A stretch of 64,000 nt of DNA from Chiloscyllium plagiosum (taxonomy: Eukaryota). Position numbers and translations under genes: made by a program. Each line of letters opens with the position of its first letter. Position 1 is the stretch's first letter. The stretch covers positions 68,434,401 to 68,498,400 of the forward strand of contig NC_057718.1 of NCBI RefSeq assembly GCF_004010195.1, in the 5' to 3' direction. The notes under the pieces were generated by a model. The model had not been told where the DNA came from, searched no databases, and worked only from the letters and a program-made list of their open reading frames with translations. Shown piece after piece: positions 3,564 through 63,492 of the stretch.

Positions 3564-4879
3564 TGTAACATTCTTCGACAATATCCACAACTCTACCAAC
3601 CTTAGTGTCTTCCGCAAATTTTACTAACCCATCCTTCTAAACCCTCATCTAGGTCATTTATAAAAATGACAAGCAATAGTCCCAAAACAAATCCTTGCGG
3701 TACACTTGTAAATGATATGTGGAACTTGTTCAAGGGGCAACTATTGAGTGTCCTTGATAATTATGTACCTGTCAGGCAGGTAGGAAAGGGTCGTGCGAGG
3801 GAGCCGTGGTTTAATAAGGAATTGGAATCCCTTGTTAAATGGAAGAGGGCGGCCTATCTCAAGATGAGACGTGAAGGTTCAATTGGGGCGATTGAGAGTT
3901 ATAGGGTAGCCAGGAAGGACCTGAAGAGAGAGCTAAAAGCAGCAAGGAGGGGACATGAAAGGTCCTTAGTAGATAGGATTAGGGAAAACCCTAAGGCTTT
4001 CTATAGGTATGTTAGGAATAAAAGAATGACTAGGGTAGGAATAGGTCCAGTCAAGGATAGTAGTGGGAAGTTGCGTGTGGAGGCGGAAGAGATTGGGGAG
4101 ACACTGAATGAATACTTTTCTTCAGTATTTACTCAGGAACAGGGCATTGTCGTCGATGTGAATACTGAGTCACAAATAAGTAGAATGGATGGCTCTGAGG
4201 TATGTAGAGAAGAGGTGTTGGAAATCCTGGAAAAGGTGAAAATAGATAAGTCCCCTGGGCCTGATGGCATTTATCCTAGGATTCTCTGCGAAGCAAGGGA
4301 GGAGATTGCAGAGCCATTGGCCTTGATTTTTATGTCCTCTTTGTCTACAGGAGTAGTCCCAGAAGACTGGAGGATAGCAAATGTGGTACCCTTGTTCAAA
4401 AAGGGGAGTAGGGATAACCCTAATAACTATAGGCCGGTGAGTCTCACTTCTGTTGTGGGCAAAGTCTTAGAGAGAATTGTAAGGGATAGGATTTATGCAC
4501 ATCTGGATAGGAATAATGTGATCAAGGATAGTCAGCATGGTTTTGTGAAGGGCAAGTCGTGCCTCACAAACCTTATTGAATTCTTTGAAAAGGTGACGAA
4601 GGAGGTTGATGAGGGGAAAGCGGTAGATGTGGTATATATGGATTTTAGTAAGGCGTTCGATAAGGTTCCCCATGGTAGGCTACTGCAGAAAATACGGAGA
4701 TATGGCATTGAGGATGAGTTGGAGGTTTGGATTAGGTGTAACATTCTTCGACAATATCCACAACTCTACCAACCTTAGTGTCTTCCGCAAATTTTACTAA
4801 CCCATCCTTCTAAACCCTGATCTAGGTCATTTATAAAAATGACAAGCAATAGTCCCAAAACAAATCCTTGCGGTACACT
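3564..4879. repeat. 143-bp direct duplication (3564-3706 and 4737-4879)
   Basis: Both copies run tgtaacattcttcg...gcggtacact and differ at one base (ccctCatc vs ccctGatc). Confidence 0.95.
3707..4736 (+). mobile_element. Internal 1030-bp fragment of a young CR1 ORF2 (RT N-terminal part) with neither element end
   Basis: Stop-free reading frame with KSPGPDGIYPR, NYRPVSLTSVVGK, QHGFVKGKSC and DFSKAFDKVPH. Bounded by a 143-bp duplication of the host element. Confidence 0.93.
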
Positions 4880-7066
4880 ACTAGTAACTGAACTCCAGGG
4901 TGAGCGTTTCCCATCAAACACTACCCTCTGTCTTCTTTCAGCTAGCTAATTTCTGGTCCAAACCGCTAAATCACTCTTAATCCCACCCCTCTTTATTTTG
5001 TGCAATAGCCTACCTGGTGGAGCCTTATCAAACACGTTACTGAGATCTACAATTACCACAGCAACTGCTTTACCCTCATCCACCTGTTTGGTCACCATCT
5101 CAAAGAACTCAATAAGTTTGTGAGACACAATCTATCTTTCACAAAACTGTGTTGACTATCCCTTTAACATATTCCTTTCTAAATGATTATAAATCCTATC
5201 TCTTATAACCTTTTCCAACATTTTACCCACAACCGAAGTAAGGCTCACTGGTCTATAATTACCAGGGTTGTCTCTACTCACCTTCTTGAACAAGGGGACA
5301 ACATTTGCTATGCTCCTGTCTTCTCGCACTATTCCTGTAGGCAATGACGACATAAAGGATCAAAGCGAAAGGCTCTGCCGTCTCCTCCCTGGCTTCCTAG
5401 AAAATCCTAGGATAAATCCCGTCCGGCCCAGGGATCTTATCTACTTTCTCACTTCCCAGAATTGCTAACACCTCCTCCTTGTAAACCTCAATCCTGTCTG
5501 GTCTAGTAGCCTGTATCTCCATATTCTCCTCAACAACATTGTCTTTTTACAGTATGAATATTGATGAAAAATGTTCATTTAGCACTTCCCTTAGCTTTTC
5601 AGACTCCATGCACAACTTTCCACTACTATCCTTGATTGGTCCTAATTTTTCTCTAGTCATTCTTTTATTCCTGATATACCTATAGAAAGCTTTCGGGTTT
5701 GACTTGATCATATCTGCCAACGACTTCTCATGTCCCCACCTGGCTTTTCTTAGCTCTCTCTCTTTAGGACTTTCCTGGCTAACTTGTAACTTTCAAGCAC
5801 CTAACTGAGCCTGCATGTGTCATCCTAACGTCTTCCTCCTTACTCTTGACAAGAGATTCAGCTTCTGTAGTAAACTATTGCATCTTCGCTTGACCATTTT
5901 CCCCCCCTGCCTGACAGGTACATACTTATCAAGGACACGCAGTAACTGTTCCTTGAATAAGCTGCACATTTCAACTGTGCCCATCCCTTGTAGTTTCCTT
6001 TGCCATTTGATGCATACTATATCTTGTGTAATCGCATCATAATTCTTTCCCCCAGCTATAACTCTTGCTCTATGGTATATACCTATCCCTTTCCAAAACT
6101 AAAGTAAACATAACCAAATTGTGCTCACTGTCACAAAGTGCTCACCTACCTCCAAATCTAACATCTGACCAGGTTCATTACCCAGTACCAAAACCAATGT
6201 ACCTCGCCTCTTGTTGGTTTGCCTACATGCTGTGTCAGGAAACTATCCTGCACACATTACAAAAACTGACCCATCTAAAGTACTCAAACTATAGTATTTC
6301 CAGTCAATATTTAGTCCCCCATAACAATTACCCTGCTACTCTCGTCCTATCCAGAATCACCTTTGCTATCCTTTTTCTCTAGATCAATTTCCTCTGGAAC
6401 TATTCGGAGGCCTATAGAAAACTCCCAAAACTGTAACCACCTTTCCTGTGTCTAACCTCGGTCAATACTCCCTCAGTAGACGAGTCCTCAAACATCCTTT
6501 CTGCCACCCTAATACTGTCCTTGACTAACAATGCCACACATCCCTCTCTTTTACCATCTTCTGTGTTCTTACTGAAACATCTAAATCCTGGAACCTGCAA
6601 CAACCATTCCTGACCCTGCTCTATCCATGTTTCCGAAATGGCCACAACATCCAAGACCCAGGTACCAACCCATGCTGCAAGTTCACTTTAACTTCATTCT
6701 TAACTTTCAAGAACATTTTCTAAATGATGGTTTGTATCCCAACCATTGAAGAGACAATAGTATTAAATTAAATGCCCTATGGGTTTGGATGCAAGATGTA
6801 GAAAATTGATTAAATATGACAATTCTAGTATCGTTGAGCAGAGATCAGATTACAGATACTATGCTCTAAACCTGGATGTCGGAAACCCATTTTCCATTTT
6901 GGCATTAGTGTTAGAGAAGGCAGCCAAGATTGCTCTCCACAGGGTAAAGTGATCAATATTGTGATTATCAACCACCAGCATCATAGATTTGAATCATTTT
7001 GTTTGTAAAAGTTTCATTCTTGTGAAATTTGTACCAGACTAAGATGTTGGGAATACTTCCTTATAG

Positions 7067-7147
7067 CTTAAAAATGTGTTGCTGGAAAAGTGCAGCAGGC
7101 CAGGCAGCATCAAAGGAACAGGAGAATCGACGTTTCTGGCATCAGGG
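7067..7147 (-). mobile_element. Truncated Penelope-like terminal repeat (pLTR)
   Basis: aaaatgtgttgctggaaaagtgcagcaggccaggcagcatc...gaatcgacgtttc, same family as 58670-58770. Confidence 0.8.
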
Positions 7148-8422
7148 CGTCTTCCTTATAGTTGGGCGAAGGAGCAAGTGTTTAGAGTTTGAAGAGATAC
7201 TGATCAAAATGATTGTTATCTTGGACATGTTTGTTTCTTGTTGAAGCTTTGTCATAATAGTAATGCTTGATTTCAACATGCAATCCAAGAACCAGCAACA
7301 TCTGAAATCTGCTATGGCCCTGGTCCTTAGGCTGCCAGATTTTAGAGAAAGTACCTTCATTATAATGTAATTTTTTTTCCCCAGAGTATCTAATCAGTTT
7401 CTTCCAGTGCTCACTTTTTGTAATTATTTTGACATTAGTAAGATCTAGTTGGCTAGTTCAATGCATTTCCTAAGAGCCCAAGATATTCATATGCTGCAAG
7501 TGGACACTCAGTCTCTCTCGGTTGAGGCCAGAAAATACTTGTTTGTTTTAATGGTTTCTCATAGTCAGCTCTTGTAACTCTTCCTCTCTACTCCTCTCCC
7601 TCTTCCCTCTCTGCCTCCCCTCACTCTCCCCTGGCCTTTCTCCCCCTCACCCCTGCCCACCTCGCCCCCCGCAACAGACCATAGTATCCTCCAAATAAAC
7701 AAAGCTGATTTTAAGAGTTGTAAACAAAGTCAGACACAAGCAATTGGATTGCAGCCAAAATCCCATGAAAAACCCTAAGCAAGCCAGCAAACTTCACAAT
7801 CCATTAAAGCAATAGAAAATAATTAAATATTCACACATTGTTCTCATCCTGGGCTACCATTTCAATATTATGAATTGTACTTTAGTGGCTTATGTATTAG
7901 ATAAACATTTTTAACTTGCCAGAAAGCTTTTCCAAATTCATAATTTTGACTTTTTTGACATCACCAGTTGGGATACGTAACTATTTGGGGAACACATTGG
8001 ACATTGGTTAAGGACATTCTTGCCTTAAAGAATGTGATCCCCTTTTAACACAAAAACCAACATTTAGTATACAATTATTGAAGTTTGTATTATAGGTCAA
8101 GGTACATCATATAAATGCAAAAAAAATGTATTTTTGAAGCTCTTCTTCCCAAACCTGCGGTCTACTGACAATCCCTTATTAAATCCACCTTCCTCTCAAT
8201 GTCTCTTATCATGTTGTGTTCAAACATTTGTAATGCAACTATTCACACCTCACATGGACACATCTATTTCTTTATTATACTAACTACCAATCCTTTTGTT
8301 TTTTTCAAATTATATTAATCTCTCCTGCCCTGCATCTGACCACAGACCTTCACTGACCTACTGAGTATTTCTAGCATTTTCTGTATAAATGTGTCATTGC
8401 ATGGTACTATGGATGAATTTCC

Positions 8423-8518
8423 TCATTCCTGAAGAAGGGCTCATGCCCGAAACGTCGATTCTCCTGCTCCTTGGATGCTGCTTGACCTGCTGCACTTTTC
8501 CAGCAACACATTTTCAAC
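8423..8518 (+). mobile_element. Penelope-like pLTR mini-insertion with a long TSD
   Basis: Same family as the pLTR attached to the GIY-YIG fragments. actatggatgaatt is duplicated at 8406-8419 and 8517-8530. Confidence 0.85.
8425..8460 (+). ncRNA. Minimal hammerhead ribozyme-like motif
   Basis: AUUC CUGAAGA A GGGC-ucau-GCCC GAA ACGU C GAUU. Confidence 0.7.
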
Positions 8519-14519: not shown

Positions 14520-14645
14520 AGGAGAAAGTGAGGACTGCAGATGCTGGAGATCAGAGCTGAAAATGTGTTGCTGGAACAGCGCAGCAGGTCAGGCAGCATC
14601 CAAGGATCAGGAGAATCAACGTTTCGGGCATAAGCCCTTCTTTAG
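14520..14645 (-). mobile_element. Penelope-like pLTR, about 125 bp
   Basis: aggagaaagtgaggactgcagatgctgg...cgtttcgggcataagcccttc. Confidence 0.85.
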
Positions 14646-15157
14646 GAGGTCTAGGTTCAGATGCAAGTGGAGAGGGTTGTGGCAATTTTGGGCTCTGGGA
14701 TTTTGCTAAGTGTTTGGAGTTGAAGGGGAACTTGCATGCTCCATGGGATTCATTATTGTTGAGACTACTGATGAATTCTTCTCACACTGCTGATATGAAA
14801 GTCCAAATGTCCCATATGTCTAATACAAATATAGAAGGTAATATTACTAAGTGACTGCATTAGGTAATAAATAAGTAATTTAGAATGAAAAGATAGCCCT
14901 CAACAGGACCTTCTTACAAAAAAACGTGCCCTGCTTTCAACCACACATGTATGCCAGACCATCTATTTCCACCTTTGTTACATAGCCTGATTCTGTCCAA
15001 ACCTCATCCCAGTTGCCGCTGAAATCCTCATATATCTTTACTACTTGATTATTCACTCCACTCACACCCATGTTCCCATGATCTACCCTCTTGCATCCAA
15101 AATCTTGTTGTTCATGTTGTAACTCTAATTATATCACATTCGCCCATCATCAATTGT

Positions 15158-18155: not shown

Positions 18156-18757
18156 GGGTAGAGTGGTGCTGGAAAAGCACAGGAGTTCAGGCAGCATCCG
18201 AGTAGCAGGAAAATCGACGTTTCGGGCAAAAGCCCTTCATCTGGAATACAGGCAGAGTGCCTGAAGGATGGAGAGATAAATGAGAGGAGGGTGGGGATGG
18301 GGGGAAAGTAGCATAGAGTACAATAGGTGAGAGGGGGAAGAGATGAAGGTGATAGGTCAGGGAGGAGGGTGGTGGAAGGTAGCAGAGTACAATGGGTGAT
18401 GGGGCTGGGATGAAGGTGATAGGTCAGAGAGGAGGGTGGAGTGGATAGATGGAAAAGAAGATAGGCTGGTAAGACAGGTCATGGGGACGGTGCTGAGCTG
18501 GAAGTTTGGAACTGGGGTGAGGTGGGGGAAGAGGAAATGAGGAAACTGGTGAAGTCCACATTGATGCCCTGGGGTTGAAGTGTTCCTAGATGGAAGATGG
18601 GGCGTTCTTCCTCCAGGCGTCGGGTGGTGAGGGAGCGGCAGTGAAGGAAGCCCAGGGCCTCCATGGCTGAGCAGGAGGGGGAGTTGAAATGTTCGGCCAC
18701 AGGGCGGTGTGTTTGATTGGTGCGGGTGTCCCAGAGATGTTCCCTAAAGTGCTCTGC
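18156..18757 (-). mobile_element. 5'-truncated Penelope-like element (GIY-YIG C-terminal part, 3' UTR, pLTR)
   Basis: ORF AEHFNSPS...RRLEEERPIFHLGTLQPQGINVDF. Imperfect TSD of about 20 bp at 18136-18155 and 18753-18773. Confidence 0.88.
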
Positions 18758-19382
18758 TTTGAGAAATTATTTGCCCAATTGCTTTGACTAATACATATGT
18801 AACTGAGCTGTCCAGACTAAAGTTCAACCCTGTTTATCTCAAAGTAACTCATCTCAGCCAGTTTCCTGTTTTTTGAATGCATTGTTTATAGAGAAAAGAA
18901 TGATATTATCAATAAAAACAAAGATTCAATAGATTGAATGACAATTCTTAAACCTTTATTCATTTCATATCAACACTAATGAAAACTTATATTTAAAATC
19001 TTTCAAATATTGATTTCCAACCTTGCACTTTGCATCCATGCTGTATCCACACTTCCTCCTTTATTTATCGGAGGTATTTATTCATGGTCAGCTAATAAAT
19101 GGACAGTTAAGCATATTCCTTTTTTTAAAGATGCAATATGTTATTATCTTCACATGGTCTTTAGTTTTAGAATTTATCTGACTCCTTTAACCTATGAAGC
19201 AGTGATGGACTTGAGTGAAAAGCAATGTATGTACATAGCTTTCATGATACCTTGTAAACACTGCAATGATTTCCGTAAAGAAATTCAAATTCTCAACAGC
19301 AAAGTTGAGGGATCACACAACAAAGGTTAAGTTCAAAAGTTTTTACTACAATAATCCATTTTGTTTTTAATTTATTCAAACA

Positions 19383-19495
19383 CTGGATGTAGGTTTGCTT
19401 GCTGAGCTGGAAGGTTTGTTTTCAGACGTTTCATCACCATACTAGGTAACATCATCAATGAGCCTCCGGATGAAGCACTGGTGGTATGGTCCACT
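19383..19495 (-). mobile_element. Second PLE-type terminal repeat family with a hammerhead-like motif
   Basis: Minus strand 19461-19422 reads UCA UUGAUGA U GUUACC-uaguau-GGUGAU GAA ACGU C UGA. Confidence 0.6.
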
Positions 19496-31627: not shown

Positions 31628-31712
31628 AAGAGTGTGTTGATGGAAAAGCACAGCAGGTCTGGCAGCATCCGAGGAGCAAGAGAGTCGACATTTCAGGCAA
31701 AAGCCCTTCAGC
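31628..31712 (-). mobile_element. Penelope-like pLTR fragment inside an old CR1
   Basis: ggaaaagcacagcaggtctggcagcatcc...gtcgacatttcaggcaaaagcccttca. Confidence 0.75.
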
Positions 31713-33525
31713 CATATATTTTTGCTTTCCTCATTTAAAAATTTATATGCCTGGGTTGAAGTTGATTCAAAGAATGTTCACAAAACTGCTGCTATGTAGC
31801 GTTGTCTTTTGAGGGAAGGTTGAACAGCATGGACCTATAATCATTGCTGTTTAGAAGAACAATAAATGATTTTATTGAAATGTAGTGTTCTAGGAATATT
31901 GAGAGAGTAGATTCTGAGGATTTTTCCCCTCATGGTGGTGAAGGACCATAAGATGTAACCTAGGTAAGCCATTCAGCTCATTGAGCCAGCTGATTTGATG
32001 GTCCTCGACTTTACGTTTCCTGCCCATCCCTGTAATCGTGAACCCTTACTGGTTAACAATCTGTCCACCTCAATTGAGCTTATACTTAATGGCCCATCCT
32101 TGTTAGCCTGTGTGGTAAAAGGTTCCACATTTTTAATACCCTCTGAGAAGAAGTTTTACCTCATCTCTGTCTTGCTCTGAGATTATACGTTCTGTTTCTA
32201 GACTCTCCCACAAGATGAAACATCTGTGTCTACCCTGTCAAGGCCCCTAAGAGTCCTTTTTGTTTCAGTCAGGCTTCATCTCTTTCTTCTGAATTTCACT
32301 GAGCATAAGCCCAGCCTATTCAATATATCCTCATAAGGAAATTCCTTTATACCCAGGAGCAACCTAGCAAATCTTCTGTGGACTTGCTGTAATGCCAGAA
32401 TAGGTAGTTCTTCAATAACCAGACAGTTGCGTTCTTGTCCAACCCTGGATTATCAAAAGAAGCAGCACTTAAAAGTGTTGACGATGTAATTGCGTTACAG
32501 CCAACACATGTTTTAAAAGTTTGTGTTTTACAAACACAGTCCCCAATTTGTCGATCGCCACACAGAGAATTCAGGTTAACAAAATGCACGTTATAGCAGA
32601 ATGACCTGTATATATTTCCTTAGAGGACCAAAACTGTTCACAGTATTTCAGTGTGGTCTGATTACTACCTTGGAAAGTTTAAACAAGACCCTTTTTTTTT
32701 AATATTTGATATAAGGACGAATATTCCATTTGCTTTTCCTCTTTTCTGCTGAACTCAGATGCTAGCTTTTTACGATTTATGCATGAACATCCCCAAATCC
32801 TTCCATTCTGCAGTTTTCTGCAGCCTTTCCCCATTTAACTAATATTCAGCTCTTCTATTTTTCCTTCCGCAGTGCATAATCTCTCATTTTCCTACATTCA
32901 CTTAACTGATCCATATCCTTCTGTAAAGTCTGTCATCCTCCCTACATAACTTCCCACCTATCAGTGTCTTCTACAAAATTGGCAATACTGCACTTACATC
33001 TGTTATCCAAGTAATTAATATATTATAGATAATTGTGTCTGCAGTATTGATCCATGTTCTGAGGAAGGGTCACTGAACCCAAAACGTTAACTCTTCTTTC
33101 TCTCCACCTACTGAATTTTTCTAGCAATTTCTTTTTTGTGTCACTGATCCCTGTGGTACTCCACTAGTTTCAGGTTGCCAATCTGAAAATACCTCCTTTC
33201 TCTGTCTTCTATTAGTTAACCTTCAAGAAGTAGTGGGGAGTGTGGTGAGGGATATAGAACGAGACAGCATAGTTTCAGTATGAGGGGTATCTCAGTTTAA
33301 AATGGAGATGACGTATTTCTTCTTTCAGAAGGCTGTTTGTCTTTGGAATTCATCAAAGACCAGGGAGCAGTGAAGGCTGATTAATTGACTATTCAAGGCT
33401 GAGATTATACAGTTTTGAATGTAAGGAAATCTAGGGTTATGGGGAACGGACAGGAAGCACAGATAAACTCAAAATCAGATTATTAATGATCTTTTTGAAT
33501 GGCAGAGTAAGTTTGTGTTAACCCT

Positions 33526-33961
33526 ATTCCTGATGAAGGGCTTATGCCAGAAATGTCGATTCTCCTGCTCGGATTTTGTCTGACCGGCTGTGCTTTCCAG
33601 CATCACACTCTCGACTCTGGACTCTGGGCGGCACAGTGGTTAGCACTGCAGCCTCACAGCGCCAGAGACCCGGGTTCAATTCTTGCCTCAGGTGACTGAC
33701 TCTGTGGAGTTTGCACATTCTCCCCGTGTCTGCGTGGGTTTCCTCCGGGTGCTCCGGTTTCCTCCCACAATCCAAAGATGTGCAGGTCAGGTGAATTGGC
33801 CATGCTAAATTGCCCGTAGTGTTAGGTAATGGGTAAATATAGGGGTGTGGGTGGGTTGCGCTTCGGCGGGTTGGTGTGGACTTGTTGGGCCGAAGGGCCT
33901 GTTTCCACACTGTAATGTAATGTAATGTAATCTAATCTAATCTACAGTCTTCACTTTCTCC
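33526..33961 (+). mobile_element. Penelope-like pLTR with a nested HE1 SINE
   Basis: Starts attcctgatgaagggcttatgcc and ends cagtcttcactttctcc. Exact 11-bp TSD ttaaccctatt at 33518-33528 and 33962-33972. Confidence 0.88.
33626..33943 (+). mobile_element. HE1 V-SINE
   Basis: Head, V-domain and TGTAA/TCTAA tail. Confidence 0.92.
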
Positions 33962-34324: not shown

Positions 34325-34486
34325 ATATCGCTAATGGTTCAGGTTCAGGAGGAGGTTATCGACCTCCCCCCAGAACAAAAGAGGTGATAATTAATGGACA
34401 AACGGTCAAGTTAAAATACTGTTTTACCTGTAAAATCTTCCGGCCACCACGTGCCTCCCACTGTAGCCTTTGTGATAATTGTGTAG
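34325..34486 (+). CDS. ZDHHC14: Palmitoyltransferase ZDHHC14 internal coding exon (N-terminal half of the DHHC-CRD), 162 bp, phase 1-1
   Basis: Polypyrimidine tract plus tcag acceptor and GTAAGT donor. Translates as (D)[53 protein letters not shown](E), matching vertebrate ZDHHC14 as recalled. Absent from the ORF track because it has no ATG. Confidence 0.95.
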
Positions 34487-47329: not shown

Positions 47330-47670
47330 AAAGCAAAATAATATGGGTGCCTGAAATCAGAAACTAGTACAGAGAATGCTGGAACAACTCAGGTCTGGCA
47401 GCATTTATGGAGAGAAAAAGAGATCGCCACTTTGATTCCAGTATTACTTTTCTTCAGAACCTGGTAATAATGTTAATCAGAAACAAAAGCAAAAATTGCT
47501 GGAGAAACTCAGCAGGTCTGGCACCATCTGTGGAAAGAAAGAAGATTCAGCATTTTGAGTTGAAATGTCAACTGTTTTCTCTTCACAGATGCTGCCAGAT
47601 CTGCTGGGTTTCTTCAGCAATTTATGTTTTCAAACTTTCAGAACTTTAGCATCTGCAGTTCCTTGTTTTT
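47330..47670. mobile_element. Cluster of old pLTR copies including an inverted pair
   Basis: 47481-47540 is approximately the reverse complement of 47575-47632. Confidence 0.7.
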
Positions 47671-47809
47671 TTTTAATGTTGTTAATGTTGACATGTTATA
47701 GCACATCTGGGGCAAGTGCAATTTGGACCTCTATCTTCTGGCCCAGAGGTAGGGACACAACCACTGCTACGAGGCCAAGACATTTATGTAGCACAATTCA
47801 TGCCATCAA

Positions 47810-50086: not shown

Positions 50087-50313
50087 GCTGAAAATGTGTT
50101 GCTGGAAAAGCGCAGCAAGTCAGGCAGCATCCAGGGAACAGGAGAATCGACGTTTCGGGCATAAGCCCTTCTTCAGGAATCGACAGGACAACGACATGAT
50201 GCAGAGCTGGGCTGAGAAGTGGCAGACACAGCTTAACTTGGAAAGGGGTGAAGTGATTCATTTTGGAAGGTCGAATTTGAATACAAAATACAAGGTTAAA
50301 GGCAGGAGTCTTG
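50087..50313 (-). mobile_element. Composite insertion: pLTR (50087-50180) plus an inverted copy of 50877-51009 (50181-50313)
   Basis: 12-bp TSD ttgtccatgtgc at 50077-50088 and 50311-50322. The 133-bp segment is the reverse complement of the donor with 3 mismatches. Confidence 0.92.
50145..50180 (-). ncRNA. Minimal hammerhead ribozyme-like motif
   Basis: AUUC CUGAAGA A GGGC-uuau-GCCC GAA ACGU C GAUU. Confidence 0.7.
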
Positions 50314-56182: not shown

Positions 56183-57132
56183 TAAGTTGAGTTATAGGGA
56201 TTGGCTGAATAGGCTGGGGCATATTTTCCTGGAGTGTCAGACTGAGGGGTGATCTTGTAGAGGTTTATGAAGTGTGGATAGGGTCTAATAGTCAAGGTCT
56301 CTTTTCCAAGGTAGGGGAGTCCAAAACTAGAGGGCATAGGTTTAAGGTGAGAGGGAAAAATTTAATAGGGAACTGAGGGGAATTATTTTCACGCAGTGGA
56401 TGGTGTGTGTGTATGGAACAAACTGCTAGAGAACGTGGTGAAGGTAGGTACAATTCCAACATTTAAAAGCCGTCTAGAGGTATATATGAATCGAAAATGT
56501 TTAGAGGGATATGAGCCAACTGCTGACAAATGGAACTATATCAGTTTAGGATATCTGTTCAGTGTGGACGAGTTGGACTGAAGGGTCTGTTTCTATGCTG
56601 TGTAATTCTGAGTCTATATCAAAATTCAGAAATCGAGAAACATGTAAGATATATTATTAATCATGCAGGTGCTTAAAGTAAGCAACACAGTAGTTCTGCA
56701 TTGTCTGATATTAATTTTATCGTTACATTATTTTCATCGGAGTTGACTGGGTGCTTTCAACTTAATCTGTTTTTTTTTTATCTTGAATGTATTTTATTTT
56801 GTAGTTTTTGTATTTTTAATACAAGAATATGTTTATCTTTGACACACTTATTAAACGAGATCAATATTTTCTATTTGCTAGCTTATTTTCTCCCACATTC
56901 TTTTTCAATGGGAAGCTAAATTCAGAATGGAAATAGCATATTGCAAGATCAACAAAATAGCCCTGATTGTTTCTTGTTGCTGTAGAGGGTGTGGAATGGA
57001 ATGCACTTTAGTTGTGTGATAAATAGACTGTCCTAGGTTAAAAATAAAAACTACGTAAACCTTTTTGTACAAAAAAGCAAACTCTGAAAAGATGGCTCAT
57101 AATCTGATCCAATAATATTTTTCCTCCTTCAG

Positions 57133-57270
57133 AACGATTTGATCACCACTGTCCCTGGGTAGGCAACTGCGTGGGAAAAAGGAACTACAGATTTTTTTAC
57201 ATGTTTATTTTGTCACTGTCATTTCTGACAGTCTTCATCTTCGCTTTCGTCATCACACATGTCATTCTCC
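57133..57270 (+). CDS. ZDHHC14: Palmitoyltransferase ZDHHC14 exon with the catalytic DHHC motif and following transmembrane helix, 138 bp, phase 1-1
   Basis: ttcctccttcag acceptor and GTAAGT donor. Translates as (E)[45 protein letters not shown](R). Joins in frame to the 34325-34486 exon (G|AA = Glu). Confidence 0.96.
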
Positions 57271-57607
57271 GTAAGTACTGTTTTAGGTCAGAATATTTGC
57301 TGCAGAAACTTAGTGTAATCTTGTTCATAACCTCCATTCATGTTCTGAAACAAAGTCAGTTACGCCATTTTATGATTCACTGAAAACTGACTGCAGTCTG
57401 GATCAACTTAGAATGATTTGTGCAGCTATTTACCTTGAATATGCTTTAGTTTCAGGTCAGAAGATCAGTAGTGTAAATATAAATGAAAAGCTATTCACTG
57501 GATCATAAGTTCATCGATTCCAGTGAAGCAGCACTGAAAACAAAAAAATGCTGGCAATCACAACAGGTCAGACAGCATCCATCTAGAGAAAACAGGCTAA
57601 CATTCTG

Positions 57608-57962
57608 GGTGGCACGGTGGCACAGTGGTTAGCACTGCTGCCTCACAGCGCCTGAGACCCGGGTTCAATTCCCGCTTCAGGCGACTGACTGTGTGGAGTT
57701 TGCACATTCTCCCCGTGTCTGCGTGGGTTTCCTCCAGGTGCTCCGGTTTCCTCCCACAGTCCAAAGATGTGCAGGTCAGGTGAATTGGCCATGCTAAATT
57801 GTCCGTAGTGTTAGGTAAGGGGTAAATGTAGGGGTATGGGTGGGTTGCGCTTCGGCGGGTGGGTGTGGACATGTTGGGCCTGTTTCCACACTCTAATGTA
57901 ATCTAATCTAAAAAAATCTAATCTAATCTAATCTAATGTAATCTAATCTAATCTAATCTAAA
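57608..57962 (+). mobile_element. HE1 V-SINE with an expanded TCTAA tail, inserted in an old pLTR
   Basis: TSD attctg at 57602-57607 and 57963-57968. Confidence 0.92.
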
Positions 57963-58669
57963 ATTCTGAGTCTAGATATGAGAGTGAGGGTGACAGAGAA
58001 TGTAGCAAGCAAAACTAAAAGAAAGGGAAGAAATGGGTTCACAATTTGAAGGTGTTGAACTCAATATTGAGCCCAGAAGATTATAAACTGCCTAGTTTGA
58101 AGATGAAGAGTTGCTCCTCCAGTTTGCACTGTGATTTGCAGGACCATTGCAGCATGCCGAGGATAGACACGTGAGCATGCGTTCAAGACCGGCTACGGGA
58201 AGGTCTGGGTCAAGCCTGCGAATAGACCAGAGGTGTCTGGCAAAGTGGTCACCCAGTCTAGGTTTAGTGTCCCCAATGTAGAGTAGGCCAATTAGGTGCA
58301 GCGAATACAATACACAAGATTGGAAGAGGTACAGGTGAAATGCTACTTCACCTGGAAAGATTGTTTAGGCTCTTGGATGGTGAGCAGGGAGGAGGTTACA
58401 TGGGAAGGTGCTGTGGGAAGGGGGTTTGGTGTTGGTTGTTGAGAAATAGACCTGGAGGGGACAATCCCAGCGAAATGCAGACAGGGAGGTGAGGGGAAGA
58501 TGTGATTGGTGGCATACTGTTAGAGTTGTCTGAAATGGCAGAGAGCGATTCTTTGAATGTGGAGAATGGTGGGTTGAAAAGTGAGAACAAAGGGGACCTG
58601 GTCACACTGTTGTGAGCGATGGGAAGGGGAAAGGTTGGACAGCTGGTGTTAGGTCAGATGCAATCGAGG

Positions 58670-59282
58670 TTGAAACTTTATTGCTGGAACAGCACAGCAG
58701 GTCAGGCAGCATCCAGGGAACAGGAGATTCGACGTTTCGGGCACAGGCCCTTCTTCAGGAATGAGCAGAGAGTGTTCAGCAGGAGAAGATAAAAGGTAGG
58801 GAGGAGGGACATGGAGGAGGGGCGTTGGAAATGTGATAGGTGGAAAGAGGTCAAGGTGAGGGTGATAGGTCGGAGTAGGGTGGAGGCGGAGAGGGCAAGA
58901 AGAAGACTGCAGGCCAGGAGGGCGGTGCCGGGCGGCTGGAGGGATTCGGCTGAGACAAGGTGGGGGGAGGGGGGATGAAGAAACTGGTGAAGTCCATGTT
59001 CATCCCCTGTGGTTGGAGGGTTCCCAGTCGGAAGATAAGACGCTCCTCCTCCGACTGTCGGGTTGTTGTGGTTTGGCGGTGGATGAGTCCAATGACCTGC
59101 ATATCCTTGGTGGAGTGGGAGGGGGAGTTGAAATGGTGTGCTACAGGTTGGTTGGGTTGGTTCGTCCGGGTGGCCCAGGGGTGCTCTCTGAATCGCTCCG
59201 CAAGTAGGCGGCCTGTCTCCCCAATATAGAGGAGGCCACACCGACTGCAGCGGATGCAGTAGATGATGTGGGTGGAGGTGCA
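58670..59282 (-). mobile_element. Young 5'-truncated Penelope-like element (GIY-YIG domain, 3' UTR, pLTR) nested in the older PLE
   Basis: Stop-free CTSTHIIYCIRCSRCGLLYIGETGRLLAERFREH...EERLIFRLGTLQPQGMN. 11-bp TSD tgcaat(c/t)gagg at 58659-58669 and 59279-59289. Confidence 0.92.
58727..58762 (-). ncRNA. Minimal hammerhead ribozyme-like motif, best copy in the window
   Basis: AUUC CUGAAGA A GGGC-cugu-GCCC GAA ACGU C GAAU: 4-bp stem I (AUUC/GAAU), 4-bp stem II, palindromic ACGU and GUC cleavage triplet. Confidence 0.75.
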
Positions 59283-61139
59283 ATTGAGGGCCCTGTCAAT
59301 CACAATGGGCGGGAAACCACTATTATGGAAGAAGGAAGCTGCTGTTTTATCTGAACAGATATGACATAGGTGAAGGAACTGGGAGAATGGGATGGAATCC
59401 TTGCAGAACATGGGGTGGCAAGAGCTGTAGTCAGTGGTTTTGTAGTGGATAGCAGTGGAAAGTTTTTTTCCCAAAATGGAGACTGAGAGATCAATGAAAG
59501 GAAGGGGAGTGTTGGAAATGGATGATAAAGTTATGGAGGGGTGCAAATTGGAGGCCAAATTATCAAATTTTTCAAGGTCCAGGTGAGAACATGACCTGGC
59601 ACCAAAACAGTCGTCGATGTACCGAAGAAAAGAGTTGTTGGAGGGAGCCAGTGTAGGACTGGAACAAGAATTGTTCCAATTACCCCATTAAAAAGGTAGG
59701 CGTAATTGGGGCCCAAGCTGGTGCCCATAGCCACTCCTTTGACATGGCAGAAATAAGATGAATCAAAGGAGAATTTGTTCAATATGAGGACAAGTACAGC
59801 CAGGCAGTGGAAGAATTGTGATTTTTCGGGCTTCTGGTTGAGGAAGAAGCTGAGAGCGCTCAGACCATCCTGGTGGGAAATAGAGGCGTAGAGGTATTGG
59901 GCATTCATGGTGAACAAGAGGCAGTTAGAGCAAGGGAACTGGAAATTGGCAATATTGCAGAGGGCATCAGAGGGATCGCAGATGTAGGTGGATAGGGTCT
60001 GGACAAGATGGAGAGAGGATGGAGTCAAGGTAGGGAGAAATTAGCTTGATGGGGCTGGAACAGGCTTATGCAATAGGCCTACTGGTGGAATCTGGTTTGT
60101 AGACTTTGGGGAGAATGTAGGAATGGGCCATGCGGGGTTGGGAGACTAAGGTTGGAGGCAGCGGAGGGAGGGTCTCCGGAGGTGATGAGGTTGGTGACAG
60201 TCCTGGCAACAATGGCTTGATGCTTGGATGTGGATTCGCGGCCTTGGGAAAGGGTGGGCATTGAGCCTGTGCAAGGTAAAGATCAGTGCGCCAGATGACA
60301 GTGGCTCCATCTTTGTTGACAGGTTTAATAATGAAGTTAGGCTTGGACCTGAGAGAGCAATGTGTGGCTATTTCAGAAGGGGGCAGGTTAAAGTGGGTGA
60401 GAGCAGCAGTGAAATTGATATCATGCCAGTAGTTTTCAATGAAGAGATCGAGTATAGGTAAGAGAGCAGAGGAACGGGTCCAAGTAGAGGGTGAATACTG
60501 GAGGTGGGTGTTGAGATCAGTGGAACTGGGCAGGGGGTAATCCTTCCCAAAGAAGTGAACAAGGAGACTAAGGCAGTGGAAAAACGGTTTGACATCCTAG
60601 TAACCGTAAAATTTATTAAAGTGGAGGTGTTGGTGTATGCAGCTGGGGACAATAGGTTCAGCCTCAGATGGGAAGGTCATGAGGCATTGTGAAAACATGA
60701 CAAGGGCTGGAGTTTGGGGGAGTGACTTCTGAGGAACAGAAAGGAATGGCATCTGAGAGCTGGGAAGGGGTGGGTGCTAAGGGACCATAAGAGATCAGCT
60801 CTGAGTGATTGGAGGGGATGGATCGGAGAGGCGTGAAGAAGGCACTGCAGGATGAGTGTTGCAGTCCATAAGTTGCTGGAGCTTGCATGCCTTGATGCCT
60901 GAAACAAAGAGAAAAAGTCTTTTGTTGAGATGACTGATGACGTGAAGGATGCAGGATGCTCATGGATCACAGGATGCAGGTGAAGCAGCAGTCTGAGGAA
61001 CATTGTATATCATAGAGATTAATCCTGATGGATTCAAAACACAAAGGGTGAAACTTGAGTTGAAATCCATGTCAACTAAGTCTGAGTCATTGGCAGTCGC
61101 TGAGAAAGGGAACATGACAACTGTGAAAGTGATTTTTGG

Positions 61140-63010
61140 CAAACACCTTGGACTTCTACCTGCCCACGGTCTCTTCATTGAAACCTGCTAGCACGTCATC
61201 AGCTATCTCAATTTCACTGCTGCTCTCACTCACTCTAACCTGTCCCCTTCTGAAATTGCTTTGTTCTCTTGGGTCCAACCCTAACTTTGTTATCAAACCT
61301 GCTGGAAAAGGTGGTCTGACACTGATCTTTACCTTGCTGAGGTTCAATGCCATTTCTCAAACACTTCTTCCTATTTTCCCCTGGACCTGAACAATCGCCA
61401 TACACCTCCATTTTCCTCGGTTTGGCTGAACTTGTTCTCTCACTGAACAATTTCTCCTTTTAATTCATCTGACTTCTGCCATGTCAAAGGAGTGTCTATG
61501 GGTACCAGCATGAGTCCCAGTTATGCATGTCTTTTTATAGTGTATGTGGAACAATTCTTGTTCCAGTCCTACCCTGGCCCCTTCTGACATTTTTTTTCAG
61601 TACATTGATGACCAAATTGGTGCCACTTCATGCTCCAAACTGAACTTTGAAAAGTTTGTTAGTTTTGTCTCCAATTTCCACCCCACTATAGCTTTCACAT
61701 CGTCCATTTCCAACACTTCCCTTCCTTTCGTTGATGTCTCCGTCTCCAAATTTTTCGGGGAATAAACTGTCCACTGCCATCCACTGACTTACATAGCTAC
61801 TTTCCCACCCCAGTCCTTCAAGGATTCCATCCCATTCTCCCAGTTCCTTCGCTATATGATATCTGTCCCGATAATGCCACTTTCCAAACCAGTGTTGCTT
61901 ACATGGTTTCCTTCTTCCATAATGCTGGTTTCCTGCCCACTGTGGTTGACAGGGCCCTCGACTGCATCCAACCTATCACCCAAGCTTCTGCCCTTGCCTC
62001 TTTCCATTGCTTGCAACAGCGTGATTGGGTCACCCTTGTTCTCACTTTTCACCTCACCAGCCACCACGCTCAAAGGATCATTCTCTGCCATTTCAGACAA
62101 CTCCAGCAGAACACCACCAGCAAACACATCTTCCCCTCAATCCCCAGTCTGCATTTCGTAGGGTTCATTCCCTCTCGGACACTCCAGTTCATTCCTTAAC
62201 CACCAACACCACCTTCCCTTCTCATGGCACCTTCCTGTGTAACTGCGGAAGGCGTATCACCTGTCCCTTCACCACCTCCCTGCTCACTATCCAAGAGCCT
62301 AAACAGTCTTTTCCGATGAAGTAGCATTTCACCTGTACCACCTCCAATCTTGTGTATTGTATTCACTGCACCCAACGTAGCCTATTCTACACTGGGGACA
62401 TTAACCCAGACTGGGTGACCACTTTGCAGGTCACCTCTAGTCCATTTGCAAGCAAGACCCCAACCTTGCCATAGCCAGTCATTTTAACGCAGCGTCTTGC
62501 TCTCATTCCACTTGTCTGTCCTTGGCATGCTGCAATGCTCCAGCCAATCACAGCGAAAACATGAGGAGCAACATCTCCTCTTCAAATTAGTCACTTTACA
62601 ACTTTCTGGGTTCAATATTGAGTTCAACACCTTCAAATTGTGGAGTAATTCCTTCCCTTTCATGTTACATTCTCTGTCACCATGTCGCCTCTCCCCTCCC
62701 TGGACTCCAGTGGCATTATCTGTTGTTTCCAGTCTGGCGGTTAGACATACCAGTGTTCTGCTCTTCTCACATTCCGATCATCTAATCTGAACTATCAACT
62801 ATTTCAACTTTCTTCTGCAGCACTTCAACCTCCCCTGACTATTGTATAAATGCTGCCTCCTCTACACTTCAGTTTAGCTCTCCCCATGAAAAGTCATCCT
62901 GACTCAAAACTTTAGCTTGTTTTTCTCCTTGGATGCTGCCTGACCAGCTGTGATCTCCAGCATTTTATGTTTTCAGTTCAGATTCCAGCATCTGCAGTAA
63001 TTTGCTCTTC
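61140..63010 (+). mobile_element. Old Penelope-like element fragment inverted relative to 57535-61135
   Basis: VIKPAGKGG, FFQYIDDQIGA (YIDD), GIY-YIG remnants near 62330-62630 and a pLTR at about 62885-63010. Confidence 0.85.
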
Positions 63011-63177
63011 CAATGAAGCGGCAGTTCATGTTGAAACATTATCAATCAAAATTAATGCTACCTTTTTTCCTAAGATCTAATAGCATATTAATAATTTATA
63101 TTGAAGAAAATAAAACAAATTCTATTCGGGGTCTAAATTAACATGAATGCAAGAGAACTTAATGCTTGTTCTCATCT

Positions 63178-63492
63178 GATAAAAATCACACAACACCAAG
63201 TTATAGTCCATCAGGTTTATTTGAAAGCACTGGCTTTCGAGGCGCTGCCTCATCATTAGATAGCTGTGGAAAGCTAGTCCTTTCAAATAAACATGTTGGA
63301 CTACAACTTGGTGTTGTATGATTTCTAACTTTGTCCTGAAGAAGGGCTCATGCCCGAAATGTCGATTCTCCTGCTCCTTGGATGCTGCCTGACCTGCTGC
63401 GCTTTTCCAGCAACACATTTTCAGCTCCGATCTCCAGCATCTGCAGTCCTCACTTTCTCCCACCCCATCCAACACTGGCACCTCCAAATCAT
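63178..63492. mobile_element. Third pLTR family as an inverted pair, with a first-family pLTR (63335-63460, +) nested in its right arm
   Basis: 63181-63238 is approximately the reverse complement of 63269-63326. The arm resumes as caccccatccaacactggcacctccaaatc after the nested copy. Confidence 0.75.

What the first reader, a model, noticed from the sequence alone, without database searches (positions are those of the whole stretch)
58727..58762. Minimal hammerhead ribozymes in the Penelope-like terminal repeats, with structure-consistent variation
Seen: the pLTR attached to GIY-YIG fragments folds as stem I (AUUC/GAAU), CUGANGA, stem II (GGGC/GCCC), GAA, ACGU, C, which places a GUC cleavage triplet. 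Across copies (8425, about 14630, about 18230, about 31700, 33526, 50145, 58727, 63336) stem II is largely kept while its loop varies (UCAU, UUAU, UUUU, CUGU). The one free core position N7 also varies (CUGAAGA, CUGAUGA, and CUGAGGA at about 33059). Established: PLEs of many animals carry minimal type I hammerheads thought to cleave as dimers through a palindromic stem III. Inference: these shark versions are very reduced (stem III is only ACGU, with an extra A before stem II), and the sense-strand copy at 8425 lies in ZDHHC14 pre-mRNA.
Basis: partly seen in the sequence, partly recalled or inferred. Interest (0 to 1): 0.72.

Follow-up and report, generated by a model that had tools for sequence, protein, structure and literature searches.

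The report
Ordinary Penelope minimal hammerheads, shark
This is a real copy of a tiny, already described self-cutting-RNA (hammerhead) motif at the end of a Penelope-type jumping gene in what is likely a shark; the family's common variants spare the ribozyme's shape while individual copies decay at its catalytic letters, so the copies are likely dead and likely do nothing to the host gene.

Summary
The motif at 58762-58727 (minus) is real: 4 strict matches in the window, none in 20 shuffles. It ends a 606-nt, 5'-truncated Penelope-like (PLE) insertion, likely Neptune-type, nested in an older PLE and antisense to ZDHHC14. It fits the published minimal-hammerhead consensus (Cervera and De la Pena 2014), including the 'extra A' and the missing helix III, so it is not unusually reduced; that paper lists no shark.

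The variation claim half holds. In two DNA runs, non-CpG variants of 5% or more hit 0 of 23 constrained and 3 of 7 free positions. But CpG decay hits six core or closing positions (G12 among them) at 5-16%, only 3 of 9 window copies are intact, and stem II shows no compensatory change within the family. The perfect stem I of this copy is a minority form.

No step or pile appears at the cut site in RNA or DNA. Copy ends pile at the motif's first base after a G, a lead from earlier notes that suggests copying of capped, uncut RNA. Cleavage is untested; nothing supports an effect on ZDHHC14. The scan has noted this family many times, in this genome and others.

The parts
58727..58762 (-). Minimal type I hammerhead motif: stem I 5' 58762-58759, CUGAAGA 58758-58752, extra A 58751, stem II and loop 58750-58739, GAA 58738-58736, ACGUC 58735-58731, predicted cut between 58731 and 58730, stem I 3' 58730-58727
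58670..59275 (-). 5'-truncated PLE insertion (GIY-YIG C-terminal part, 3' UTR, hammerhead, conserved downstream tail), nested in an older PLE
   Evidence: tblastn; Pfam GIY-YIG E=1.5e-4, 22.5 bits against cut-off 22.6; blastn against an uninterrupted old copy
59276..59289 (-). Target-site duplication, 5' copy (14 nt, 2 mismatches)
58656..58669 (-). Target-site duplication, 3' copy
59276..60905 (-). Older decayed PLE, RT part, interrupted by the insertion
57989..58669 (-). Older decayed PLE, linker and endonuclease part, continuing the RT part
8425..8516 (+). Intact solo copy, sense to ZDHHC14, with a 14-17 nt target-site duplication; no endonuclease fragment
50087..50180 (-). Intact solo copy, preceded by a G directly before A2.4
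63334..63460 (+). Solo copy with C15.2U, inserted into another repeat; begins at about position 2.2
14521..14647 (-). Solo copy with G5A and C17U
18160..18760 (-). Second 5'-truncated PLE (endonuclease end, 3' UTR, hammerhead with U4A and N7=U), 11-nt target-site duplication
33526..33614 (+). Solo copy with N7=U, C11.1A and C15.2U
31629..31711 (-). Copy truncated inside the 5' core, with C11.1U and C15.2U
7066..7146 (-).
34325..34486 (+). ZDHHC14 internal coding exon
57133..57270 (+). ZDHHC14 coding exon with the DHHC motif

Best explanation
The motif is a minimal type I hammerhead at the 3' end of a 606-nt, 5'-truncated Penelope-like insertion; in the active source element it likely cuts after GUC only weakly and likely needs a second motif or the element's own protein, whereas the scattered genomic copies are likely dead, neutrally decaying copies that were likely made from uncut RNA. 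Shown: sequence and position, nesting with a target-site duplication, match to the published consensus, the pattern of variation, and that copies span the cut site. Inferred: selection for the fold acted on source elements (common non-CpG variants avoid core and stems); after insertion, CpG decay destroys about half of the motifs; stem I is too weak to form unaided, so activity would need a domain-swapped dimer through ACGU or protein help, as reported for other PLEs. No host function is needed to explain anything seen.
For: Descriptor 4 hits against 0 in 20 of 20 shuffles. Fits the consensus of PMC4209133 Fig. S3. Lies 3' of a GIY-YIG remnant 68% identical to a shark PLE protein. Reads and contigs from many copies laid on the 8429 copy: non-CpG variants of 5% or more at 0 of 23 constrained, 3 of 7 free and 10 of 53 (X1) or 8 of 53 (X11) downstream positions; Fisher p=0.009 constrained against free, p=0.03 and 0.10 against downstream. 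All 6 CpG positions (C11.1, G12, C15.2, G16.2, C17, G1.1) vary at 5-16% in all three runs; about 43-54% of copies would keep all three CpGs if independent. Stem II pair probability 0.8-1.0, stem I under 0.1 in a 136-nt context. About 1,600 RNA reads cover each side of the cut site without a step (1,601 at 8456, 1,622 at 8457). In the anole PLE the hammerhead cuts only with the element's protein, is dispensable for insertion, and uncut RNA is the main template (PMC11167929).
Against: No cleavage assay. In the RNA run, 3 of 23 constrained positions (A2.4, A14, A15.1) vary at about 6%, and the contrast with downstream sequence is not significant there at the 5% threshold (p=0.09). The downstream tail is itself conserved, so it is a weak control. 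Reads with mismatches near the 5' end are clipped (piles at 8434), which hides variation in the 5' core; frequencies depend on the reference (GAAU form 1-9% on the 8429 copy, up to 25-34% on the 58758 copy). No compensatory change within the family. The predicted double hammerhead (-9 to -13 kcal/mol) is less stable than competing folds (-18 to -22), though the model ignores core contacts. No motif folds better than its shuffles (z -1.8 to +0.5).
Confidence: 0.8

Rival explanations
1. The motif no longer cuts in sharks. It is kept in source elements for another reason: it forms the start of the element's RNA and acts as an internal promoter or as a binding site for the element's protein.
For: No step or pile at the cut site in RNA or DNA. 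Family-typical stem I is 2 bp plus a mismatch plus 1 bp and rarely forms. Copy ends pile at A2.4. Drosophila Penelope has an internal promoter at its pLTR transcription start (PMC2377424, passages). Cervera and De la Pena do not exclude other functions.
Against: Variation falls at the positions that hammerhead chemistry leaves free (N7, loop II). Other families in the window keep the core with different pairs at 2.1-1.1: C-G, U-A at 33059, A-U at 19458. Related motifs cut in vitro as dimers or with protein.
Confidence: 0.13
2. Intact sense copies such as 8425 cut the ZDHHC14 pre-mRNA, alone or paired with another copy, and so tune host expression.
For: The 8429 copy has an intact core and is by inference sense and intronic. 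RNA reads of the family come from both strands.
Against: Its stem I pairing probability is about 0 in context. The nearest sense family copies lie 25 kb (33530, C11.1A) and 55 kb (63336) away. It is an ordinary insertion with a target-site duplication. The named 58758 copy is antisense. 3 sense against 6 antisense copies is not significant (p=0.25).
Confidence: 0.03
3. The roughly 95-nt solo copies are an independent, non-autonomous hammerhead retroelement (retrozyme-like) that spreads through cut and circularised RNA.
For: 7 of 9 copies are short and lack coding sequence; the terminal 90 nt has several times the depth of the rest of the element.
Against: The same sequence is continuous with GIY-YIG remnants in 2 of 9 copies. 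Copies are dispersed (3.6-18 kb apart), not tandem. 0 of 9 begins at the cut site, which copying from a cut RNA would predict.
Confidence: 0.04

Closest known systems
Minimal hammerheads (min-HHR) in pLTRs of metazoan Penelope-like elements (Cervera and De la Pena 2014, PMC4209133; main text parts 1-2 of 4 and supplement file 2 parts 1-2 of 3 read; supplement file 1 not searchable)
   Same: CUGANGA plus one extra base, G10.1-C11.1, GAAA, palindromic 15.2-16.2 with no loop III, UH, short stem I; at the 3' end of PLEs; mostly single dispersed motifs. The Acropora Neptune example has a 4-bp stem II starting GGGC and the same CGUC end.
   Different: No cartilaginous fish among the rows of Fig. S3 or Table S1. 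Stem II is 4 bp, at the short end of the range. Family-typical stem I has a U-U mismatch.
Hammerhead of Poseidon from Anolis carolinensis (Frangieh et al. 2024, PMC11167929; parts 1-2 of 4 read)
   Same: Vertebrate PLE pLTR hammerhead; no reads beginning or ending at the cut site in public RNA data; uncut RNA serves as template.
   Different: Poseidon clade, tested in vitro (protein-assisted, dispensable). The shark element's relatives carry the Neptune-type linker and nothing is tested.
PLE hammerhead variants that cleave as dimers (Lunse, Weinberg and Breaker, RNA Biol 14:1499; not held, seen only as a citation and through passages of review PMC6765202)
   Same: Very short palindromic stem III, type I, PLE-associated.
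   Different: Could not check whether shark motifs are among them.
Non-LTR retrozymes (bioRxiv 10.64898/2026.07.22.740005; passages and section 14 read; supplements closed)
   Same: Type I hammerhead, derived from PLE pLTRs, reported in one chondrichthyan.
   Different: Defined as tandem repeats with a hammerhead in each unit; the copies here are dispersed and single.

Membership tests
min-HHR of metazoan PLEs | Core CUGANGA ... GAAA ... UH | tested here: met
   58758, 8429, 50176, 63336 pass a strict descriptor
min-HHR of metazoan PLEs | Extra base between 9 and 10.1, and G10.1-C11.1 pair | tested here: met
   A at 58751; G58750-C58739; consensus
min-HHR of metazoan PLEs | Palindromic 15.2-16.2 with little or no helix III | tested here: met
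   ACGU at 58735-58732
min-HHR of metazoan PLEs | Short helix I | tested here: met
   4 of 4 pairs possible at 58758, 3 of 4 in typical copies; predicted to form rarely in context
min-HHR of metazoan PLEs | Located in the terminal repeat of a PLE | tested here: met
   About 220 nt 3' of a GIY-YIG remnant at 59275-58980; same at 18243
min-HHR of metazoan PLEs | Weak self-cleavage as a dimer, none as a monomer | not testable with these tools
   No assay; folding energies only; no cut-site ends seen
Canonical type I hammerhead (Rfam families) | Reaches an Rfam gathering score; 6-bp helix I with loop contacts | tested here: not met
   0 matches in the window; no extended helix I in folds
Neptune clade of PLEs | C-terminal GIY-YIG endonuclease with the CCHH motif after an RT | tested here: met
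   CxxC between the GIY and YIG motifs and two downstream histidines; relatives carry RT plus GIY-YIG
Neptune clade of PLEs | CX2-5CxxC linker between RT and endonuclease (PMC8557442, passages) | tested here: inconclusive
   Present in 31 of the 35 relatives (of 38) with a recognisable YIG motif, including the three closest; this truncated copy does not reach the linker. Nematis also has a linker motif.
Neptune clade of PLEs | RT groups with Neptune references in a tree | not tested
   No named reference set was fetched
Non-LTR retrozyme | Tandem repeat with a hammerhead in each unit | tested here: not met
   Copies are single and 3.6-18 kb apart

The most novel reading that the evidence does not exclude
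The hammerhead is the very first 36 bases of the element's capped RNA. The many 95-130 nt solo copies are run-off cDNAs of that uncut front end, with the cap copied as an extra G. The genome would then record that shark PLEs start transcription at stem I, prime reverse transcription about 100-130 nt inside the RNA, and transpose mostly without ribozyme cleavage. Support here: loose ends at A2.4 in 505 and 525 contigs of two species' DNA runs, against about 350 at each neighbouring base, with G as the commonest preceding letter among otherwise AT-rich, unrelated flanks; a lone G between joints at A2.4 in 3 of the 12 listed rows; 5 of 9 window copies begin within about 3 nt of A2.4 and 0 of 9 at the cut site. 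The reading comes from earlier scan notes; that an RT copies the cap as G is recalled, not from a paper found here.
Probability: 0.5. Interest if true: 0.55.

Novelty: new member of a known kind. Interest (0 to 1): 0.3.

Why it matters
What hammerheads do in animal PLEs is still open (PMC8557442 calls it unclear; PMC11167929 finds it dispensable in vitro). A very abundant shark family gives a natural data set on that question: source elements appear to keep the fold, copies lose it, and copy ends suggest that uncut RNA is the usual template. The subfamily-like form with a perfect stem I (as at 58758) is a good substrate for a first cleavage test. No effect on ZDHHC14 is expected.

Tried and rejected
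No whole genome is held, so no genome-wide covariation alignment or R-scape test was possible; reads and contigs were used instead. Rfam at gathering scores: 0 matches. A 19-nt motif from the downstream tail found 0 loci in viral contigs and 81 in metagenomes; none of the 81 looked like a PLE end by eye, and the 2 flagged by a loose filter lack the motif's architecture. Folding z-scores give no support for a stable fold. The loose-end pile at 58762 in the RNA run (208 reads) was not taken as evidence of a start site, because long copies of the N7=U subfamily diverge from the reference at that same base; the same holds for the 212 RNA reads at 8425. No RNA holder was listed for 56900-58900; run X22 gave no reads; run X21 gave no reads on the flanks of the 8425 copy: none of these is evidence on expression. 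No empty-site joint for the 8425 copy is among the 15 of 23 joints listed, so its age is unsettled. A cross-family MAFFT alignment was out of register and not used for pair counts. Lunse et al. is not held. Searches for hammerhead + Penelope + shark gave one review where 'shark' describes the shape; a shark-genome search listed nothing on these motifs; two searches for cap-derived G gave nothing usable. 'Unusually reduced shark form' was rejected against the published consensus. Orientation bias in the window is not significant.

Full report
Observation. The minus strand at 58762-58727 reads AUUC CUGAAGA A GGGC CUGU GCCC GAA ACGUC GAAU. In hammerhead numbering C3 is 58758, C17 is 58731, and the predicted cut lies between 58731 and 58730. 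A strict descriptor (exact core, stem II of 4 bp or more, stem I of 2 bp or more, pairing 15.2-16.2) finds 4 sites in the window (8429+, 50176-, 58758-, 63336+) and none in 20 of 20 dinucleotide-preserving shuffles; with one core mismatch it finds 8 against at most 1. Rfam gives 0 matches at gathering scores. Nine copies of this family are in the window, the eight named plus one at about 7146.

Setting. The motif lies about 220 nt 3' of a GIY-YIG remnant (Pfam E=1.5e-4, just under the cut-off; 68% identical over 107 aa to a Chiloscyllium protein). The three best hits of 38 are from a whale shark, a bamboo shark and a ray, so the host is likely a shark (inference). The remnant and the motif form a 606-nt insertion, 59275-58670, between 14-nt target-site duplications with 2 mismatches. 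It interrupts an older PLE: an uninterrupted old copy on the + strand aligns to 59833-59270 and then to 58669-57989 with an 18-nt overlap. 31 of the 35 relatives with a recognisable YIG motif carry the CX2-5CxxC linker that marks Neptune and Nematis but not Penelope/Poseidon (PMC8557442 passages); this copy is too short to show it, so Neptune is likely, not proven. Two DHHC exons lie on the + strand at 34325-34486 and 57133-57270; the second is 100% identical to many proteins named ZDHHC14, and exon 2 was not found in the window with five full-length homologues. The named copy is therefore antisense to the gene, and the 8425 copy is by inference sense and intronic.

State of the copies. Three of nine keep core, stem II and ACGU intact (8429, 50176, 58758). 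63336 has C15.2U; 14645 G5A and C17U; 18243 U4A; 33530 C11.1A and C15.2U; 31711 and 7146 are truncated inside the motif. Two are attached to endonuclease remnants (58758, 18243). By eye, five begin within about 3 nt of the first stem I base, two inside the motif, none at the cut site. The CUGAGGA site at 33059 is another family with G12A.

Is the variation structure-consistent? No genome is held, so reads of one RNA run and contigs of two DNA runs (two organisms by their codes) were laid on the 8429 copy at 80% likeness, listing variants of 5% or more (2,037 reads; 44,400 and 47,541 contigs; 40 of 41 rows shown). Setting CpG sites apart, variants hit 0 of 23 constrained positions and 3 of 7 free positions (N7, loop II) in both DNA runs (Fisher p=0.009), against 10 of 53 and 8 of 53 downstream (p=0.03 and 0.10). 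In RNA the counts are 3 of 23 (each about 6%), 5 of 7 and 18 of 53 (p=0.007 and 0.09). So common, subfamily-like variants respect the fold. All six CpG positions, C11.1, G12, C15.2, G16.2, C17 and G1.1, vary at 5-16% in all three runs; if independent, 43-54% of copies keep all three CpGs. This is the pattern of selection on source elements followed by neutral decay of copies (inference). Stem II shows no compensatory change within the family; it simply does not vary apart from C11.1. Real alternative pairs appear only between families: 2.1-1.1 is C-G here, U-A at 33059 and A-U at 19458. Limits: clipping near the 5' end hides variation in the 5' core, contig depth is not copy number, and frequencies depend on the reference. 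The perfect stem I (GAAU) makes up 1-9% on the 8429 reference and at most 25-34% on the 58758 reference; the usual form has a U-U mismatch.

Could it cut? Stem II forms with probability 0.8-1.0. Stem I forms with 0.3-0.5 in the isolated 58758 motif, under 0.1 in typical copies, and under 0.1 in all three intact copies in context. A domain-swapped double hammerhead scores -9 to -13 kcal/mol against -18 to -22 for competing dimers; for typical copies the competitor pairs through a palindrome across the cut site. The model ignores core contacts, so this shows weakness, not inactivity. In RNA, 1,601 reads cover 8456 and 1,622 cover 8457, with no step, and no place where many molecules begin or end is listed. 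Only the six largest loose-end piles per run are shown (the smallest has 136 reads in RNA), about 2% of the run was read, and the library is a poly(A) single-cell one, so cutting of a few percent would be missed.

Copy starts. In both DNA runs the largest listed loose-end pile is at A2.4 (505 and 525 contigs, against 344-369 at the neighbouring bases), the flanks are unrelated (agreement 0.31), and the commonest letter before A2.4 is G, whereas the two long copies in the window have C or T there; the 50176 copy shows this G. Earlier scan notes read this as copying off the capped front of an uncut RNA; I took that reading from them and my data agree only in part, since the share of G is not given and fold-back copies can also supply a G.

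Comparison with print. Cervera and De la Pena define exactly this motif: consensus CUGANGAH, G...C stem II, GAAAN-palindrome-NUH, with the extra base, G10.1-C11.1 and no helix III; a Schistosoma monomer did not cut and dimers cut weakly (PMC4209133). Their lists hold lamprey, coelacanth, bony fish, Xenopus, turtle and snake, but no cartilaginous fish (supplement file 1 could not be searched). In the anole Poseidon element the hammerhead cuts only with the element's protein, mutants still insert, and no RNA-seq reads start or end at the cut (PMC11167929). A 2026 preprint reports pLTR-derived retrozymes in one chondrichthyan (supplements closed). Lunse et al. could not be read and may include sharks. 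My searches found no paper on shark PLE hammerheads, which is not proof of absence. The scan's index holds 364 findings with these words in at least 32 genomes, and 2,410 notes in this genome fit 'hammerhead Penelope'.

Verdict. A real, textbook minimal PLE hammerhead in a lineage not listed in the defining paper: a new member of a known kind.

Noticed in passing
window 19462-19420 (minus): A hammerhead-like motif of another family: UUGAUGA core (C3U), extra U, 6-bp stem II, GAAACGUC, stem I UCA/UGA.
   Followed up: partly
window 33055-33090 (+), 62885-62990 (+), 47563-47330 (-) and 47551-47699 (+), 27909-27824 (-), 57610-57525 (-): Older, decayed PLE ends that share the downstream tail motif with this family; several have longer stem II remnants. 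The 47.5 kb copies form an inverted pair.
   Followed up: partly
window 58713-58675 (minus) and all family copies: The tail 3' of the hammerhead is conserved across at least three families in the window (15 matches) and can form a short hairpin; it may be the site the element's protein recognises. Untested.
   Followed up: partly
window 8421-8425 joined to 8458-8460, and 8425 to 8436: Fold-back joints in DNA contigs (1-3 contigs each) link the motif's first bases to bases 1-3 nt after the predicted cut site; one joint also shows in 15 RNA reads from 13 starts. Could be stem I microhomology or a trace of cut RNA.
   Followed up: no
window 63170-63335: An inverted pair of another short repeat with a decayed hammerhead-like stretch near 63258 (minus); the 63336 copy is inserted at its end.
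   Followed up: partly
window 61150-62661 (+) and 60905-57989 (-): Two old PLE bodies in opposite orientation, about 74% alike.
   Followed up: partly
run X21: Family reads come from both strands at about 60 to 40, the majority sense to the element if the second mate reads the RNA strand (assumed).
   Followed up: no
window 15153, 16944, 30257, 33613, 38636, 42526, 55970, 57602: A roughly 280-nt SINE-like repeat family (resembles shark HE1 SINE, name recalled); one copy interrupts the old PLE end near 57602-57925.
   Followed up: no
window 3606-4776 (+) and 51399-50394 (-): Long open frames that look like CR1-type LINE reverse transcriptase (label by recalled resemblance).
   Followed up: no
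window 34325-34486: Two shark ZDHHC14 isoforms among the homologues (P0086, P0157) lack this exon, so it can be skipped in some annotated isoforms.
   Followed up: no
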